From positions 16,802,001 to 16,866,000 of the forward strand of contig OZ024745.1 of assembly GCA_964016885.1 (NCBI GenBank): a stretch of DNA of 64,000 nucleotides. Direction: 5' to 3'. The position numbers and the translations under genes were made by a program. The notes below the pieces were generated by a model that saw nothing but the letters and a program-made list of their open reading frames with translations, searched no databases and was not told the DNA's origin. The stretch's first letter is position 1, and the number at the start of each line of letters is the position of its first letter. This DNA is from Eledone cirrhosa. Its lineage: Eukaryota. This document shows, one piece after another, positions 4,141 to 58,855 of this stretch.

Positions 4141-4456
4141 ATATCAATGATATTAATAAATGGAAACTATCTTTATGAAACCATATTTATTTTATTATAT
4201 ATATTTCAAAGGGTACCAAACTTTTGGTACGGTCTCATCAGATAAAATACAAAAGTTGTTTTAAAAATAGTGACATATCCAAAAAACAGAACTTAAAACG
4301 ATAAGTCCTTGTTTTTTGGATATGTCACTATTTATAAAACAACTTTTGTATTTTATCTGATAAGGGCGTACCAAAACTTTGGTACCCTTGAAATAGATAT
4401 AATAAAATAAATATGGTTTTATAAAGATATTTTCCATTTATTAATATCATTGATAT
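4141..4456. mobile_element. fold-back element (~155 bp arms) with hammerhead in each arm; PLE pseudo-LTR inversion
   Basis: ATATCAATGATATTAATAAATGGAAA... pairs with ...TTTCCATTTATTAATATCATTGATAT around a ~6 nt loop; (TA)n on the right. Relatives at 12395-12470, 48075-48405 and 53795-53925. Confidence 0.85.
4190..4247 (-). ncRNA. type I minimal hammerhead ribozyme
   Basis: ttttat CTGATGA gaccgtaccaaaagtttggtacccttt GAAA tatata TA ataaaa. The mirror copy at 4351-4407(+) has CTGATAA. Confidence 0.8.
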
Positions 4457-5127
4457 ATATATATATATATATATATATATATATATATATATATATATAT
4501 ATATATATATATATATATATATTTACAACTAACTTGCCTGATATAGCTCTTCGTTTAGTTTAGTACGAATCTGACAGTGTGATGTATTTGAAATTCCCTG
4601 CTTCGCTATTGCTATATATATATATATTTTCCCCTCTATTTTACCCCTTAAAGAAAATAGATCGAAAAATCCCTGTATTAATTGTAATTACCATTACTTG
4701 GTATGAATATTTTTTTCCTTTTGCTGTCTACATTTATCGCTTTTATGTGATAATAATTCAAAGTAAATGACCATTTCGTGCCATTTACGTTATGCGAAGG
4801 TATTATCACATTGTTCTTCTTTGAGACTTTTGCTGAAAAATATACAAAAAATTCATTCTAAGCATATAACAATCTACACACCATAATTACTTCCCCTGAA
4901 TATTTAGATGTTGTAGAATACAGAGCAGTCTTACAGCCGGTGGTGATGATGATGAAATATATATATATATCATTTATATATATATATTTATATTACAACA
5001 CAACGGAAAATACTGTATATATATATATATATATATATATATATATATATATATATATATATAATATCATTTATATATATATATATATATATATATATAT
5101 ATATATATATATATATATATATATAAT

Positions 5128-5268
5128 GGTAACACAACAGTTAGTTCACTATAACGAGAACAATTGTTTCACCTTAGCGGATCTTCAGCTCGTAATCCAA
5201 TTACGAGCTGAAGATCCGCTAAGGCGAAACAATTGTTCTCGTTATGGCGAACTAACTCTTGTGTTACC
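5128..5268. mobile_element. fold-back element (~70 bp arms) with hammerhead
   Basis: GGTAACACAACAGTTAGTTC...CGTAAT cca ATTACG...GAACTAACTCTTGTGTTACC, next to (TA)n. Confidence 0.85.
5203..5242 (+). ncRNA. type I minimal hammerhead ribozyme
   Basis: acgag CTGAAGA tccgctaaggc GAAA caattg TT ctcgt; palindromic stem III. Mirror copy at ~5155-5193(-). Confidence 0.75.
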
Positions 5269-54842: not shown

Positions 54843-55068
54843 CTTCAGAACAAACTATATTTTATGTTGGTAGATTTTATATGTTATCTGATTCAACACG
54901 ATCTTAGATGTATTTAGTTGAGTTCACTCTGATGCAAGCTTTGAACCCAGATCTCCACAATTTCTCCAAAATATCTCTGGTGACTTTGGAAAATAAGGGG
55001 TCATAATGACTAAGAGGTAAAACCCGCAACGAAATACATATGATTGCAACAATTATTTTCTATAAAAC
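54843..55068 (-). other. candidate spliced exon (non-coding or UTR)
   Basis: Minus strand TTTTATTTTCAG|G acceptor and AAG|GTAACA donor; stops in all three frames. Confidence 0.2.
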
Positions 55069-57389
55069 CTGAAAATAAAATGCATTTTAATAAATTTGAT
55101 CGATATAGTACTGGATGGTATCGTTCACTTAGACAATATACATTTAGCAAGAGGAAACTCCTTAAAAACATCGACGTTATTTTGTGAAATATATTTAAAC
55201 ATTAATTGTTCTATAAAACAACTGGTATATCTATTTTTACTACAATGGATAGTAGGTAATTATTGAACCGTATTCTCTCATTATAAGTCAATGCCCCACT
55301 CACCAATTCTACGCCCTTATTTCATAAACACTCTTATCATATATTCAATTCGTTTATATTTTTCAACTCCATTATGTATGATTACAGAAATAGGTGGACA
55401 TATTGTCTAAATAATTGATTCTCCTCACACATTTAAATTTTCACTCACTATGTGTCTGTACGTGTGGCTTCAATATGTGGACGTAGTGATTAATAACATT
55501 CTTTATATATTCAATTTACATTAGGAATTCATAAAAGTGTGTCATAAAAAGATATCAATTAAATATGTATAAATAGTAAATATATTTTATTATGGTTGCT
55601 TTCTCACTATTGATAAAAGGCTGACCTATATTTCGGTCATAAAATAATATTCATTGTGTAAATATCACTACATATTTCAAAGTTCTGACGCATTTTAAAA
55701 TATCATATACTGAAAGTGCCATATCGCAATGAATTACTTTCCTTCTATTTATTACTTGTTTATTTAGTCATATCAATTGACTAGAAAATATAGCCGAGTT
55801 TGATTCAGTTACAGAATAGGGTTTTATGGTCTATGCGTCTAAATGAGCTAAAACCGTTTAATAGACTTAGAGAACAATAACTTAATTTATATTCGTGTAA
55901 TTTTCTTCATAGGAATAAATAGCTAGAAGTACTTTTCTGTGAATGGTACCAAGGATGTCATTATCTGCAGTGTGATACTTTGAATAAAAATTGGACTCAT
56001 AGATCAATATGAAATGATTACCATAACTATAAAGGAATCAAATGACAAAATACATTTTGCAATTATTGAAATAATTATATGGAAAATTATTTCTCACATA
56101 ACAACAAGTACAAAAAAATTTAGGTTACACAAGAAAATGAATGTATTTCACATTGGGAAAAGTTCTTTTTCGTTTCATCAATATAAACATAAACACGTAA
56201 AGATTGAGACATACACACTGCACTATAAATTATCCCTTATTCTCTCATTCTTTCTCTCTCCACCTCCCCTCTCCTTCTTTATCTCTCACTCTCTCTCTTT
56301 TTATTATATTGACTTTCTGGCCGACTGTTGGGTTCTTCCCGTTACGACATGAAAACCGCAACAGCTCAACCATTGGGCATAATCTAATTATAATAAATAC
56401 AATCTCCATTTAAAAGTATGCAATAAGAAACTAATCAATGGCCTTACTAGACTAAACGGGTAGTTCCATATCTATCTATATATATGTATATATAATTATA
56501 GACTAAGAGTGAAACCATTCGTTCACACTGAGTAAACGTATTAGTGTTAGAATAGTTTGTATGCAGCAACTATTGATATCACGTATTTGCAACTATTGAT
56601 GTCTCGCTATTGGTCAGTGGTAAATAGCGGCAAAAATTGAAATTAAAATATACAGCCTTATATAGATTTCAACCAGTTTGCGAAAAATTAAAAACGATTT
56701 GTAAAGAAATACAGAGTTTAAAGGATGTTAATACAATTTACTTACATCTCTGGTTGTTCTGTTAACTGGGAGAAATATATATTTACTGATAAGGGTATAG
56801 CAAATATTAGATATAATCCCGTTTGTTCACAATGAGATATGGTTTGAAGGTATCGAGCAAACTTGTCCCAGAATTCTATAAGTATGTATATATATTCATA
56901 AATGTGGCAGTTGCACAAATCATACACTACACATCCACACTCACACCCACATAGACACACACACATGCACACACATATGCATACATATACACACACACAC
57001 ATATATATATATGTATGTATATATATATATATATATATATATATATATATATATATATATATATATATATATATATATATATATATATATATATATATAT
57101 ATAGGAAAAAAGTCAGGACATCAGGCTGAGCAACGGCCTGAGCTCAGCCGTCGGAGTCCTGACTCTTTTCCTATTACCCACTCTACTAACATAACTATCG
57201 AGTAGTCTGGTGCGTTATGGTCCACCTGGTTCCTTACCACGCTTTCTTTGTTATATATATATATATATGTATATATATATATATATATATATATATATAT
57301 ATATATATATATATTAGGGTAAACATTGATGCAATTCAATTCAAGCACTCAACGTACTTTTTCCACATAGGAATGACGGAGTAAATATC

Positions 57390-58855
57390 GAATAAGTAAA
57401 AGCGAAGTAGTTTCAGATGTCCAAGTCCTTTAATAATAATGCTGTGATATATATTTCAATGACGACACTGGCCACACTGTTCTGTGTGCGAGTGTCGTGA
57501 CATCATCAGACAGCTTGTTACATAATAAGGTTGTTTCCGAGGCAATCCAAATTGAATCGACATGGGAACGGATGAAGTTCGTGCTTTTGGGTTTTTCATC
57601 CGTTCCCTTGTGAGTAGCAATTCACCCCCACCGGTCTGCGCAAGCGCATGTCCGAAGGAAGTTGACCATTAGCACCGCAGATTTCAACGAAATTCGCTGT
57701 CAGTGGCCCACCAATGCCTTGCCAATATTTACTGCAACCCATCGCTAGTGTGGCAGTCAGCCGAAAGCCAGAGGGGATGGGAGGGTGTTAGTTTTTATAG
57801 GTCATAATACTACCTTTCACTTAGCGTTGACAGTAAGACTGACCATCAACTCATAAGGTAAAATAAACTTAATTCTAGGTACTATGGTTTTACATAGTAA
57901 GTTAAGAGTGAGAGTTGGGAATAAAAATTAAAATACTAAATCAAATATCAGAGATTATAAATTAAACAATAAAGAATTCAAAAATTCTGAATTCAAAAAT
58001 TTTTTTCAAGTGATAATTCGGATTAAGTAAAGATATACATTGAAGTGGGTAAATAATATGGAGAGAGATGTTTAAGTAATATGTTCTGTTTAAGTAATAT
58101 GTTCCGTCATAAGGTCCGGCACTGCCGTTCAATATCTGTAACACTAGAATCCCTCCCAGAACATATTACTTAAACATCTCTCTCCATATTATTTACCCAC
58201 TTCAATGTATATCTTTACTTAATCCGAATTATCACTTGAAAAAGATTTTTGAATTCAGAATTTTTGAATTCTTTATTGTTTAATTTATAATCTCTGATAT
58301 TTGATTTAGTATTTTAATTTTTATTCCCAACTCTCACTCTTAACTTACTATGTAAAACCATAGTACCTAGAATTAAGTTTATTTTACCTTATGAGTTGAT
58401 GGTCAGTCTTACTGTCAACGCTAAGTGAAAGGTAGTATTATGACCTATAAAAACTAACACCCTCCCATCCCCTCTGGCTTTCGGCTGACTGCCACACTAG
58501 CGATGGGTTGCAGTAAATATTGGCAAGGCATAGGTGGGCCACTGACAGCGAATTTCGTTGAAATCTGCGGTGCTAATGGTCAACTTCCTTCGGACATGCG
58601 CTTGCGCAGACCGGTGGGGGTGAATTGGTACTCACAAGGGAACGGATGAAAAACCCAAAAGCACGAACTTCATCCGTTCCCATGTCGATTCAATTTGGAT
58701 TGCCTCGGAAACAACCTTATTATGTAACAAGCTGTCTGATGATGTCACGGCACTCGCACACAGAACAGTGTGGCCAGTGTCGTCATTGAAATATATATCA
58801 CAGCATTATTATTAAAGGACTTGAACATCTGAAACTACTTCGCTTTTACTTATTC
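57390..58855. mobile_element. young ~700 bp-arm fold-back element with hammerheads
   Basis: 57390-58088 is the reverse complement of 58157-58855 with only a handful of differences; near (TA)n/(CT)n on both sides. Confidence 0.95.
58731..58804 (+). ncRNA. type I hammerhead ribozyme with extended stem II
   Basis: gctgt CTGATGA tgtcacggcact cgcacac agaaca gtgtggcc agtgtcgtcatt GAAA tatata TC acagc. Mirror copy at 57441-57514(-). Confidence 0.85.

What the first reader, a model, noticed from the sequence alone, without database searches (positions are those of the whole stretch)
4141..58855. Constant polarity: ribozyme sense points outward, so the antisense arm is transcribed first
Seen: wherever readable, the hammerhead is on the minus strand in the left arm and the plus strand in the right arm (4190-/4351+, 5155-/5203+, 8900-/9787+, 30377-/31804+, 48121-/48307+, 57441-/58731+). 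Both outer ends facing (TA)n are therefore element 3' ends. Inference 1: both sides of a break in (TA)n were primed on the element 3' end, or the cDNA snapped back. Inference 2: read-through from either strand makes the antisense copy first, burying the ribozyme in dsRNA. Such insertions would not cut host pre-mRNA and might be tolerated more than solo copies.
Basis: partly seen in the sequence, partly recalled or inferred. Interest (0 to 1): 0.75.

Follow-up and report, generated by a model that had tools for sequence, protein, structure and literature searches.

The report
Head-to-head Penelope ends, twin-primed
These mirror-image DNA hairpins are head-to-head pairs of the tail ends of Penelope-like jumping genes (and of a non-coding repeat likely moved by them); their ribozyme motifs point outward, likely because both sides of a cut in the host DNA start a copy of the element's RNA, a known layout, and the idea that the hairpin shields host genes from a predicted RNA cut has only weak support.

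Summary
The polarity is real. All six pairs carry a type I hammerhead motif, minus strand left and plus strand right; two families have variant cores. In 1.6 Mb outside the window, same-family opposite motifs within 1.5 kb were head-to-head in 71 of 73 pairs. This is the published layout of endonuclease-positive Penelope-like elements (inverted 5'-truncated copy, one-sided tail). Two families lead upstream into GIY-YIG frames; one is a non-coding 1.27-kb tandem unit. The two outer ends differ: 40 of 43 classifiable pairs join one tailed and one tail-less end, and in 16 of those 40 neither arm contains the other. That favours priming from both sides of the break over snap-back. Polarity therefore needs no selection. 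The shielding geometry holds in silico. In 795 kb of gene interiors, exposed intact motifs ran 7 sense to 21 antisense (p=0.013), but other definitions gave p=0.05-0.24 and fold-backs were not enriched in genes. The scan found the Penelope, tail and twin-priming reading before on other DNA of this genome.

The parts
4070..4455 (.). Fold-back B: arms 4145-4298 and 4299-4452; tail on left arm only (about 4070-4144)
4188..4249 (-). Type I hammerhead motif, core CTGATGA at 4241; base of stem II imperfect
4349..4409 (+). Type I hammerhead motif with G8A change (CTGATAA at 4357), predicted inactive
5126..5337 (.). Fold-back C: arms 5127-5269, motifs 5188- and 5208+ (GUU site); tail on right arm only (5270 to about 5337). 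No ORF link tested
8794..9977 (.). Fold-back D: left arm tail-less, right arm with 33-nt tail; U3-A8-core motif at about 8900-8950 (-) and 9786-9838 (+). Longer copies run upstream into a GIY-YIG frame in the same sense
30270..31878 (.). Fold-back E (Hydra-type PLE): long left arm with tail 30270-30354, short tail-less right arm 31540-31875; motifs 30422- and 31809+ with core CAGAAGA
31272..31544 (-). C-terminal piece of the PLE GIY-YIG endonuclease in the long arm of E, same sense as that arm's hammerhead motif
47975..48410 (.). Fold-back F: canonical motifs 48166- and 48314+; tail on left arm only (about 47975-48075)
57322..58855 (.). Fold-back A: 699-nt arms 57390-58088 and 58157-58855, 99% complementary; canonical motifs 57509- and 58736+. 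Left arm has the tail but is shorter at its 5' end; right arm owns the spacer and lacks the tail. Family is a non-coding 1274-1275 nt tandem unit
10418..12004 (.). Further fold-back H, same polarity as judged by its ORF: short tail-less left arm, long right arm with endonuclease piece 10691-10987 (+) and tail
9996..10190 (.). Small fold-back turning inside a hammerhead-like motif (3' half only); tail on right arm. A relative lies at 57104-57251
32200..32425 (.). Small fold-back, motif 32333- in left arm; extension on left arm only
48545..48940 (.). Fold-back with one-sided outer extension (left); no hammerhead motif found by my descriptor, so its polarity was not read
49050..49590 (.). Fold-back, motif 49306- in the longer left arm; right arm stops before GAAA
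49613..49972 (.). Fold-back, motif 49759- in left arm; tail on right arm. A relative lies 391 nt downstream of a GIY-YIG piece in the same sense
53945..54425 (.). Second copy of family E: motifs 54010- and 54273+, tail on right arm only
53767..53922 (+). Unpaired copy of the B type with an intact motif (core 53823)
52207..52457 (.). Fold-back with one-sided outer extension (left); polarity not scored
58880..59313 (.). Fold-back with one-sided outer extension (left); polarity not scored

Best explanation
The hairpins are single insertions of Penelope-like elements (and of a non-coding tandem repeat likely mobilised by them) made of two 5'-truncated 3'-end copies joined head to head, and the outward polarity is likely a by-product of target priming: the element's endonuclease would cut both strands of a (TA)n run, each free DNA end would prime reverse transcription at one of two fixed start sites on the RNA, and the two cDNAs would be joined at their growing ends. 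Shown: head-to-head layout; two discrete 3' ends per family; one of each per insertion; hammerhead sense equal to ORF sense where an ORF is linked; short overlaps at many centres. Inferred: double-strand cutting, two primings, use of the same or a sibling RNA (re-copied by strand displacement, or a tandem transcript), and end joining. Because reverse transcription runs from the RNA's 3' side, both host junctions must be 3' ends, so tail-to-tail pairs are not made and need not be purged. A read-through transcript is predicted to bury the sense ribozyme. This may spare host pre-mRNA a little, but it is a side effect, not the cause of the pattern.
For: Polarity 71 of 73. Family E leads to an RT plus C-terminal GIY-YIG frame with Hydra-clade marks, family D to a GIY-YIG frame. 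In one search, 5 of 32 ORF pieces had a sense motif within 2.5 kb downstream, 4 of them before any (TA)8 run. Across 97 loci of three families, 52 unclipped head-to-head junctions were tailed+tail-less 40, tailed+tailed 3, tail-less+tail-less 0 and unclassifiable 9 (p=1e-9 for 40 of 43 against independent ends). In 16 of the 40 the tail-less arm reaches further 5', so neither arm contains the other. In L003 and L019 the tailed arm is little more than the tail. Centres overlap by 1-8 nt in 31 of 47 junctions with gaps of 30 nt or less. Arms share private letters in some copies: L001 21 in 712 nt, L178 13 in 812. In vitro, a PLE protein cleaves and extends both strands and starts at two sites flanking the tail (PMC11167929).
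Against: No biochemical test here. In most pairs the arms overlap in sequence, unlike L1 twin priming, so the model needs re-copying or a tandem RNA, which is inferred. Arms were closer to each other than to any other sampled copy in only 5 of 35 comparisons; most overlaps are short and uninformative. PMC11167929 saw no strand difference in start site, so the near-strict one-of-each pairing is unexplained. PMC3846280 reads the same layout as self-priming on an antisense template. Pfam gave no RT or GIY-YIG hit, and the 120 homologues shown of 360 carried no informative name, so the PLE call rests on motifs read against PMC8557442. Four ORF pieces had an antisense motif downstream (three beyond a (TA)8 run; the fourth on a piece 46 aa short of its C-terminus), and families C and F were not tied to their own ORF. 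Centre overlaps of 1-2 nt can be chance BLAST extension.
Confidence: 0.72

Rival explanations
1. Self-priming: one cDNA (or an antisense RNA) folds back and copies itself, and the endonuclease later trims one arm at a fixed site, leaving the tail on one side.
For: PMC3846280 proposes self-priming on an antisense template. PMC8557442 ascribes the tail to endonuclease resolution. Some centres are perfect palindromes (10671-10717). Arms can share private letters. In 24 of 40 pairs the tailed arm is also the longer one, as nesting predicts.
Against: In 16 of 40 pairs the tail sits on the arm that is shorter at its 5' end, including 57322-58855 itself. In L003 and L019 the short arm is almost only tail, which the long arm lacks and so could not template.
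Confidence: 0.13
2. Selection makes the polarity: both arrangements arise, but tail-to-tail ones expose a sense ribozyme first, cut host pre-mRNA and are purged.
For: Full-hairpin transcripts are predicted to lose stem I (P 0.000). Exposed intact motifs in genes ran 7 sense to 21 antisense. Retrozymes avoid introns in Xenopus (bioRxiv 10.64898/2026.07.22.740005; strand not examined in the section read).
Against: The polarity is just as strict in unselected stretches (37 of 37 within 1.5 kb) as in genes (34 of 36). Unpaired intact motifs are common, with 29 exposed in 800 kb, and sense ones persist in genes. A single minimal PLE hammerhead showed no cleavage in vitro (PMC4209133), and the anole one needed protein (PMC11167929).
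Confidence: 0.05
3. Not exclusive of the best explanation: polarity is mechanistic, but selection thins exposed sense ribozymes in introns, and hairpin copies escape this.
For: 7 sense vs 21 antisense, p=0.013; the skew holds in genes on both strands (4:13 and 3:8). Unselected stretches gave 15:14. Decayed motifs gave 7:8 and non-intact ends 45:45. A tRNA-like SINE leans the other way in the same genes, 100:62.
Against: 8:19, p=0.052; 6:12, p=0.24 and 6:14, p=0.12. About p=0.09 by a gene-level sign flip worked by hand from the list. Against the decayed control p=0.18. Exposed motifs are no rarer overall in genes (28 in 795 kb vs 29 in 800 kb), and paired arms are no denser. The SINE skew shows that strand bias can arise without a ribozyme. 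Poly(A) signals are a confounder: 12 of 18 intact solos carry AATAAA in sense.
Confidence: 0.3
4. The palindromes are assembly artefacts or post-insertion inverted duplications of solo copies.
For: Inverted repeats beside long (TA)n are hard to assemble. Gene conversion could explain shared letters.
Against: Arms differ by scattered substitutions, end at two family-fixed points, and are not nested in 16 of 40 pairs. The same layout is published from other animals.
Confidence: 0.03

Closest known systems
Endonuclease-positive Penelope-like element insertions with inverted 5'-truncated pLTR and one-sided tail (PMC3846280, passages; PMC8557442, passages and section 11)
   Same: Head-to-head inverted copy (called the most frequent arrangement), tail on one end, hammerhead near the end, microsatellite targets.
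   Different: Here the pattern is counted: 71 of 73 for polarity, 40 of 43 for one tail, 16 of 40 non-nested. Tails are 33, 76 and 85 nt against the 30-40 bp described. The data favour two primings over the self-priming proposed in PMC3846280.
Hydra clade of PLEs (PMC8557442, section 11)
   Same: Family E has a CxCX5C linker, CxxC and CxH around the conserved E and N, a C-terminal GIY-YIG and (TA)n targets.
   Different: Its hammerhead core reads CAGAAGA. DKT and RWK motifs and phylogeny were not tested. Supplementary family files were not read, so family E may already be named there.
Minimal PLE hammerheads, including U3-A8 cores and opposite-strand pairs 100-700 bp apart (PMC4209133, parts 1-2 of 4)
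   Same: Type I motifs with short palindromic stem III; the U3-A8 variant (family D); dual motifs on opposite strands.
   Different: The parts read do not state which way the pairs face, nor any intronic strand bias.
Anole Poseidon element in vitro (PMC11167929, parts 1-2 of 4)
   Same: Both strands cleaved and extended, AT-rich target, two reverse-transcription start sites bounding the tail.
   Different: The parts read do not link the two sites to the two arms of inverted insertions; the genome counts here make that link.
L1 twin priming and dual priming (PMC2837659, passages)
   Same: Second strand primes internally, giving an inverted piece and a junction with little or no microhomology.
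   Different: L1 twin-primed pieces do not overlap and use a poly(A) end. Here both starts are fixed and the arms usually overlap, forming palindromes.
Animal non-LTR retrozymes (bioRxiv 10.64898/2026.07.22.740005: abstract, section 13)
   Same: Family A is a non-coding, hammerhead-bearing tandem unit with PLE-type ends.
   Different: Its unit is 1.27 kb, longer than the few hundred bases I recall for retrozymes (recalled, not checked), and it often inserts as head-to-head hairpins.

Membership tests
EN+ Penelope-like elements | RT with C-terminal GIY-YIG ORF upstream of, and in the same sense as, the repeat end | tested here: met
   Family E: 590-aa open frame in L176 with YRDD and a GIY-YIG-type core, 96% identical over the window's 90-aa piece. 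Family D: endonuclease part only. B-type and 49613-type relatives. Motif names read by eye; Pfam silent.
EN+ Penelope-like elements | Own ORF for family A (57322-58855) | tested here: not met
   The unit is a 1274-1275 nt tandem monomer; longest sense ATG frame 47-55 aa. Non-autonomous.
EN+ Penelope-like elements | Own ORF for families C (5126) and F (47975) | not tested
   No family search was run for them.
EN+ Penelope-like elements | Type I hammerhead motif in the terminal repeat | tested here: met
   Variant cores in D and E. No Rfam hammerhead row among the 150 shown.
EN+ Penelope-like elements | Inverted 5'-truncated copy, head to head | tested here: met
   71 of 73; 53 head-to-head junctions against 1 convergent 23-nt piece in 97 family loci.
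EN+ Penelope-like elements | [quoted passage not shown] | tested here: met
   40 of 43; tails 33, 76 and 85 nt.
EN+ Penelope-like elements | Target site duplication | not testable with these tools
   Ends lie in (TA)n or (CT)n, where a duplication cannot be read.
Hydra clade (family E) | CxCX5C linker; CxxC and CxH around the conserved E and N; no CCHH in the endonuclease | tested here: met
   CNCRNRVDC and CDLC..E..LNK in L176; CKH in L154; one Cys in the GIY-YIG core (criteria).
Hydra clade (family E) | DKT and RWK motifs; placement in the RT tree | not tested
   The frame runs off the 5' edge of L176; no tree built.
Neptune clade (family D) | Zn-finger linker and RT phylogeny | not tested
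   Only the endonuclease end was seen; the Neptune label is recalled from motif look.
Non-LTR retrozymes (family A) | Non-coding tandem monomers, each with a hammerhead | tested here: met
   L272 and L273 hold two motifs 1274-1275 nt apart.
Non-LTR retrozymes (family A) | Expressed as self-cleaved or circular RNA | not testable with these tools
   No RNA holder listed.
L1-type twin priming | Inverted pieces that do not overlap on the RNA | tested here: not met
   Most arms overlap; only L003 and L019 are essentially non-overlapping. It works like twin priming but is not the L1 form.
Active hammerhead ribozyme | Self-cleavage of a single arm | not testable with these tools
   Folding only: stem I forms in the isolated motif for 3 of 7 (5199, 48300, 58728).

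The most novel reading that the evidence does not exclude
Penelope-type RNPs insert as a dimer in which each strand of the cut is assigned to a different one of two fixed start sites, so each head-to-head hairpin records both primings. The resulting hairpin silences an otherwise harmful ribozyme, and exposed sense copies are thinned two- to three-fold in introns while hairpin copies are not.
Probability: 0.2. Interest if true: 0.62.

Novelty: new member of a known kind. Interest (0 to 1): 0.3.

Why it matters
How Penelope-like elements build their inverted ends is named as open in PMC8557442. The one-tail-per-insertion rule and the non-nested arms tie the two start sites found in vitro to the two arms and give a direct test. 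If the intronic sense deficit holds genome-wide, it would be population-level evidence that these weak ribozymes cut host RNA in vivo. The polarity itself is ordinary for this class.

Tried and rejected
Rfam scan: only microRNA-type matches to simple repeats. Pfam: nothing for seven window pieces or for the L176 frame. The protein atlas gave no answer. Sequencing runs: no RNA holder listed; no reads were laid. Mismatch spectra between arms of 11 window hairpins showed no A-to-G excess, so RNA editing is not seen here. Arm-versus-family identity was mostly uninformative (5 of 35). The 'arm alone' folds for 4145 and 5127 are unreliable because the slice can still hold part of the other arm; two strand cases found no motif and the 8794+ row scored a wrong motif. 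Convergent pairs were inspected for two loci: each involves an arm of a hairpin next to a separate copy, so I read them as neighbouring insertions. Rejected: DNA-transposon terminal inverted repeats (the arms are 5'-truncated at variable points and continue into an RT ORF), and microRNA precursors (all far below Rfam gathering scores). A scripted gene-level permutation and a test of fold strength in sense versus antisense survivors were not obtained (one search failed). Twenty more gene-interior stretches were not obtained, so the intron test stayed at 795 kb. Literature searches found no paper that applies twin priming to PLE inverted ends or tests intronic strand bias of PLE hammerheads; subscription papers are not covered.
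Full report
Setting. The window is G000:C5:16802001-16866000 of a 3.0-Gb genome. Earlier scan notes call this genome an octopus; I did not test that. Self-comparison shows about 17 local fold-backs beside (TA)n runs.

Observation. The six cited pairs are real and all point outward. Pairs 5188/5208, 48166/48314 and 57509/58736 have canonical CUGANGA...GAAA cores. At 4241/4357 the right copy has G8A. 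The 8794-9977 family carries a U3-A8 core in 34 of 37 motif copies with a weak stem I; that covariation is reported for PLE hammerheads (PMC4209133). The 30270-31878 family reads CAGAAGA. Rfam showed no hammerhead row among 150 of 160 rows, so I used my own descriptor. It gave 85 hits in 80 evenly spaced 10-kb stretches and 1 in 400 kb of shuffled sequence. Eleven of the 85 are one tandem array. Scaled up, the genome holds on the order of 100,000 such motifs (inference).

Polarity beyond the window. All 35 hits inside inverted arms pointed outward. With homology-oriented units in 800 kb of unselected and 795 kb of gene-interior DNA, same-family opposite units were head-to-head in 59 of 60 pairs within 0.5 kb, 71 of 73 within 1.5 kb and 82 of 87 within 3.5 kb.

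What the elements are. The spacer of 30270-31878 encodes an endonuclease end on the minus strand. [quoted passage not shown] It shows the CxCX5C linker and the CxxC and CxH marks of the Hydra clade (PMC8557442 section 11). Pfam did not recognise it, and its 360 homologues (120 shown) had no useful names. Family D runs upstream into another GIY-YIG frame; I recall the motif as Neptune-like and did not test that. Five of 32 ORF pieces had a sense motif downstream, four of them before any (TA)8 run, and four had an antisense one, three of them beyond such a run. Family A (57322-58855; 2661 first-look candidates) is a non-coding unit: its tail continues into the next 1274-1275 nt monomer. Families C and F were not tied to an ORF.

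Mechanism. Each of families A, D and E has two fixed 3' ends: 56 and 132, 112 and 146, and 29 and 114 nt after the predicted cut. I examined 97 of 105 loci (8 duplicates of the same insertions dropped; the window's own copies are included). Of 53 head-to-head junctions, one was clipped by the locus edge; the rest were tailed+tail-less 40, tailed+tailed 3, tail-less+tail-less 0 and unclassifiable 9 (p=1e-9). The tail-less arm reached further 5' in 16 of the 40 and the tailed arm in 24. A self-copy must be nested in its template, so those 16 need two separate primings; 57322-58855 is one of them. In L003 and L019 the tailed arm is hardly more than the tail, as if the first enzyme stalled at the second primer. 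Centres overlap by 1-8 nt in 31 of 47 tight junctions, abut in 5 and have small gaps in 11. Some pairs share private letters (L001 21 in 712 nt against 0.37% on average with other copies), which fits one source transcript or later conversion, but only 5 of 35 pairs were each other's closest sampled copy. These loci were chosen by likeness to the window's arms, so they are not a random sample. The anole PLE protein cuts and extends both strands and starts at two sites bounding the tail (PMC11167929). I infer double priming, which forces both host junctions to be 3' ends.

The shielding idea. In a head-to-head pair the antisense arm is made first from either strand. ViennaRNA gave stem I a probability of 0.000 in all 9 correctly scored full transcripts (long loops trimmed), against 0.79-0.86 for the isolated arm of family A and 0.07-0.26 for F. 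The 5126-5270 transcript folds into one rod at -111 kcal/mol. Only 3 of 7 isolated motifs form stem I in their best fold, and published minimal PLE hammerheads are nearly inactive as monomers or need protein.

The intron test. Exposed intact motifs ran 7 sense to 21 antisense (p=0.013; 7:20 without the edge case), against 15:14 in unselected DNA. Other definitions gave 8:19 (p=0.052), 6:12 (p=0.24) and 6:14 (p=0.12). A gene-level sign flip by hand from the list gives about 0.09. Decayed motifs ran 7:8 (difference p=0.18) and non-intact ends 37:44. A tRNA-like SINE was sense-enriched 100:62 in the same genes, so strand skews arise here without ribozymes. Paired arms were 190 per Mb in genes and 188 outside. 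This is a hint, not a result.

Comparison with what is known. PMC3846280 (passages) calls head-to-head the most frequent arrangement and places the optional tail on one inverted pLTR. PMC8557442 (passages; section 11) describes the same and (TA)n targeting. PMC4209133 (parts 1-2 of 4) reports opposite-strand motif pairs. PMC2837659 (passages) defines twin and dual priming for L1. bioRxiv 10.64898/2026.07.22.740005 (abstract, one word search, section 13) reports retrozyme avoidance of introns. No supplements were read; those of PMC8557442 may already name these families, and bioRxiv supplements are closed. My searches found no paper with these counts or a strand test. Other notes of this scan reached the Penelope, tail and twin-priming reading on other DNA; none lay near this window. 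My counts were made before I saw them.

Verdict. Double priming at two start sites is the likely cause (0.72). Shielding is a plausible side effect with weak support (about 0.3). Interest 0.3.

Noticed in passing
window 33674-40987: GC-rich tandem array of a 24-nt unit, about 311 copies, with open frames of more than 1100 codons in the three plus-strand frames and two minus-strand frames (Thr/Ser-, Pro- or His-rich readings); a mucin-like exon or a satellite.
   Followed up: partly
window 7419-7602 and about ten more copies; gene-interior stretches L186-L265: A tRNA-like SINE (A and B boxes read by eye) is sense-enriched inside genes, 100:62 (p=0.004), but not in unselected DNA, 63:57.
   Followed up: partly
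window 4028-4083: A 14-nt inverted copy of the element's tail end lies across the (TA)n run. 9 of 2183 (TA)8+ runs are hugged by such an inverted flank, against 1.3 after shuffling; several are low in complexity. Possibly fill-in after (TA)n folds on itself.
   Followed up: partly
family E, window 30422, 31809, 54273; L154: The hammerhead core reads CAGAAGA (U4A) with a CUU site in several copies of a recently spread family; activity unknown.
   Followed up: no
window 5197-5199, 10041-10065, 32334, 57135: Small hairpins turn just upstream of or inside the hammerhead motif; earlier notes suggest the centre marks the RNA 5' end.
   Followed up: no
L076:281-3381: Eleven head-to-tail copies of a 310-nt hammerhead unit, a retrozyme-like array.
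   Followed up: no
window 52571-52978 (+), 8377-8670 (-): Further PLE endonuclease ends not belonging to the cited pairs.
   Followed up: partly
window 30517-30777: A diverged direct repeat of about 125 nt (78%) in the terminal region of family E.
   Followed up: no
L015, L016, L157: The three pairs with two tailed ends; candidates for priming on two RNAs.
   Followed up: no
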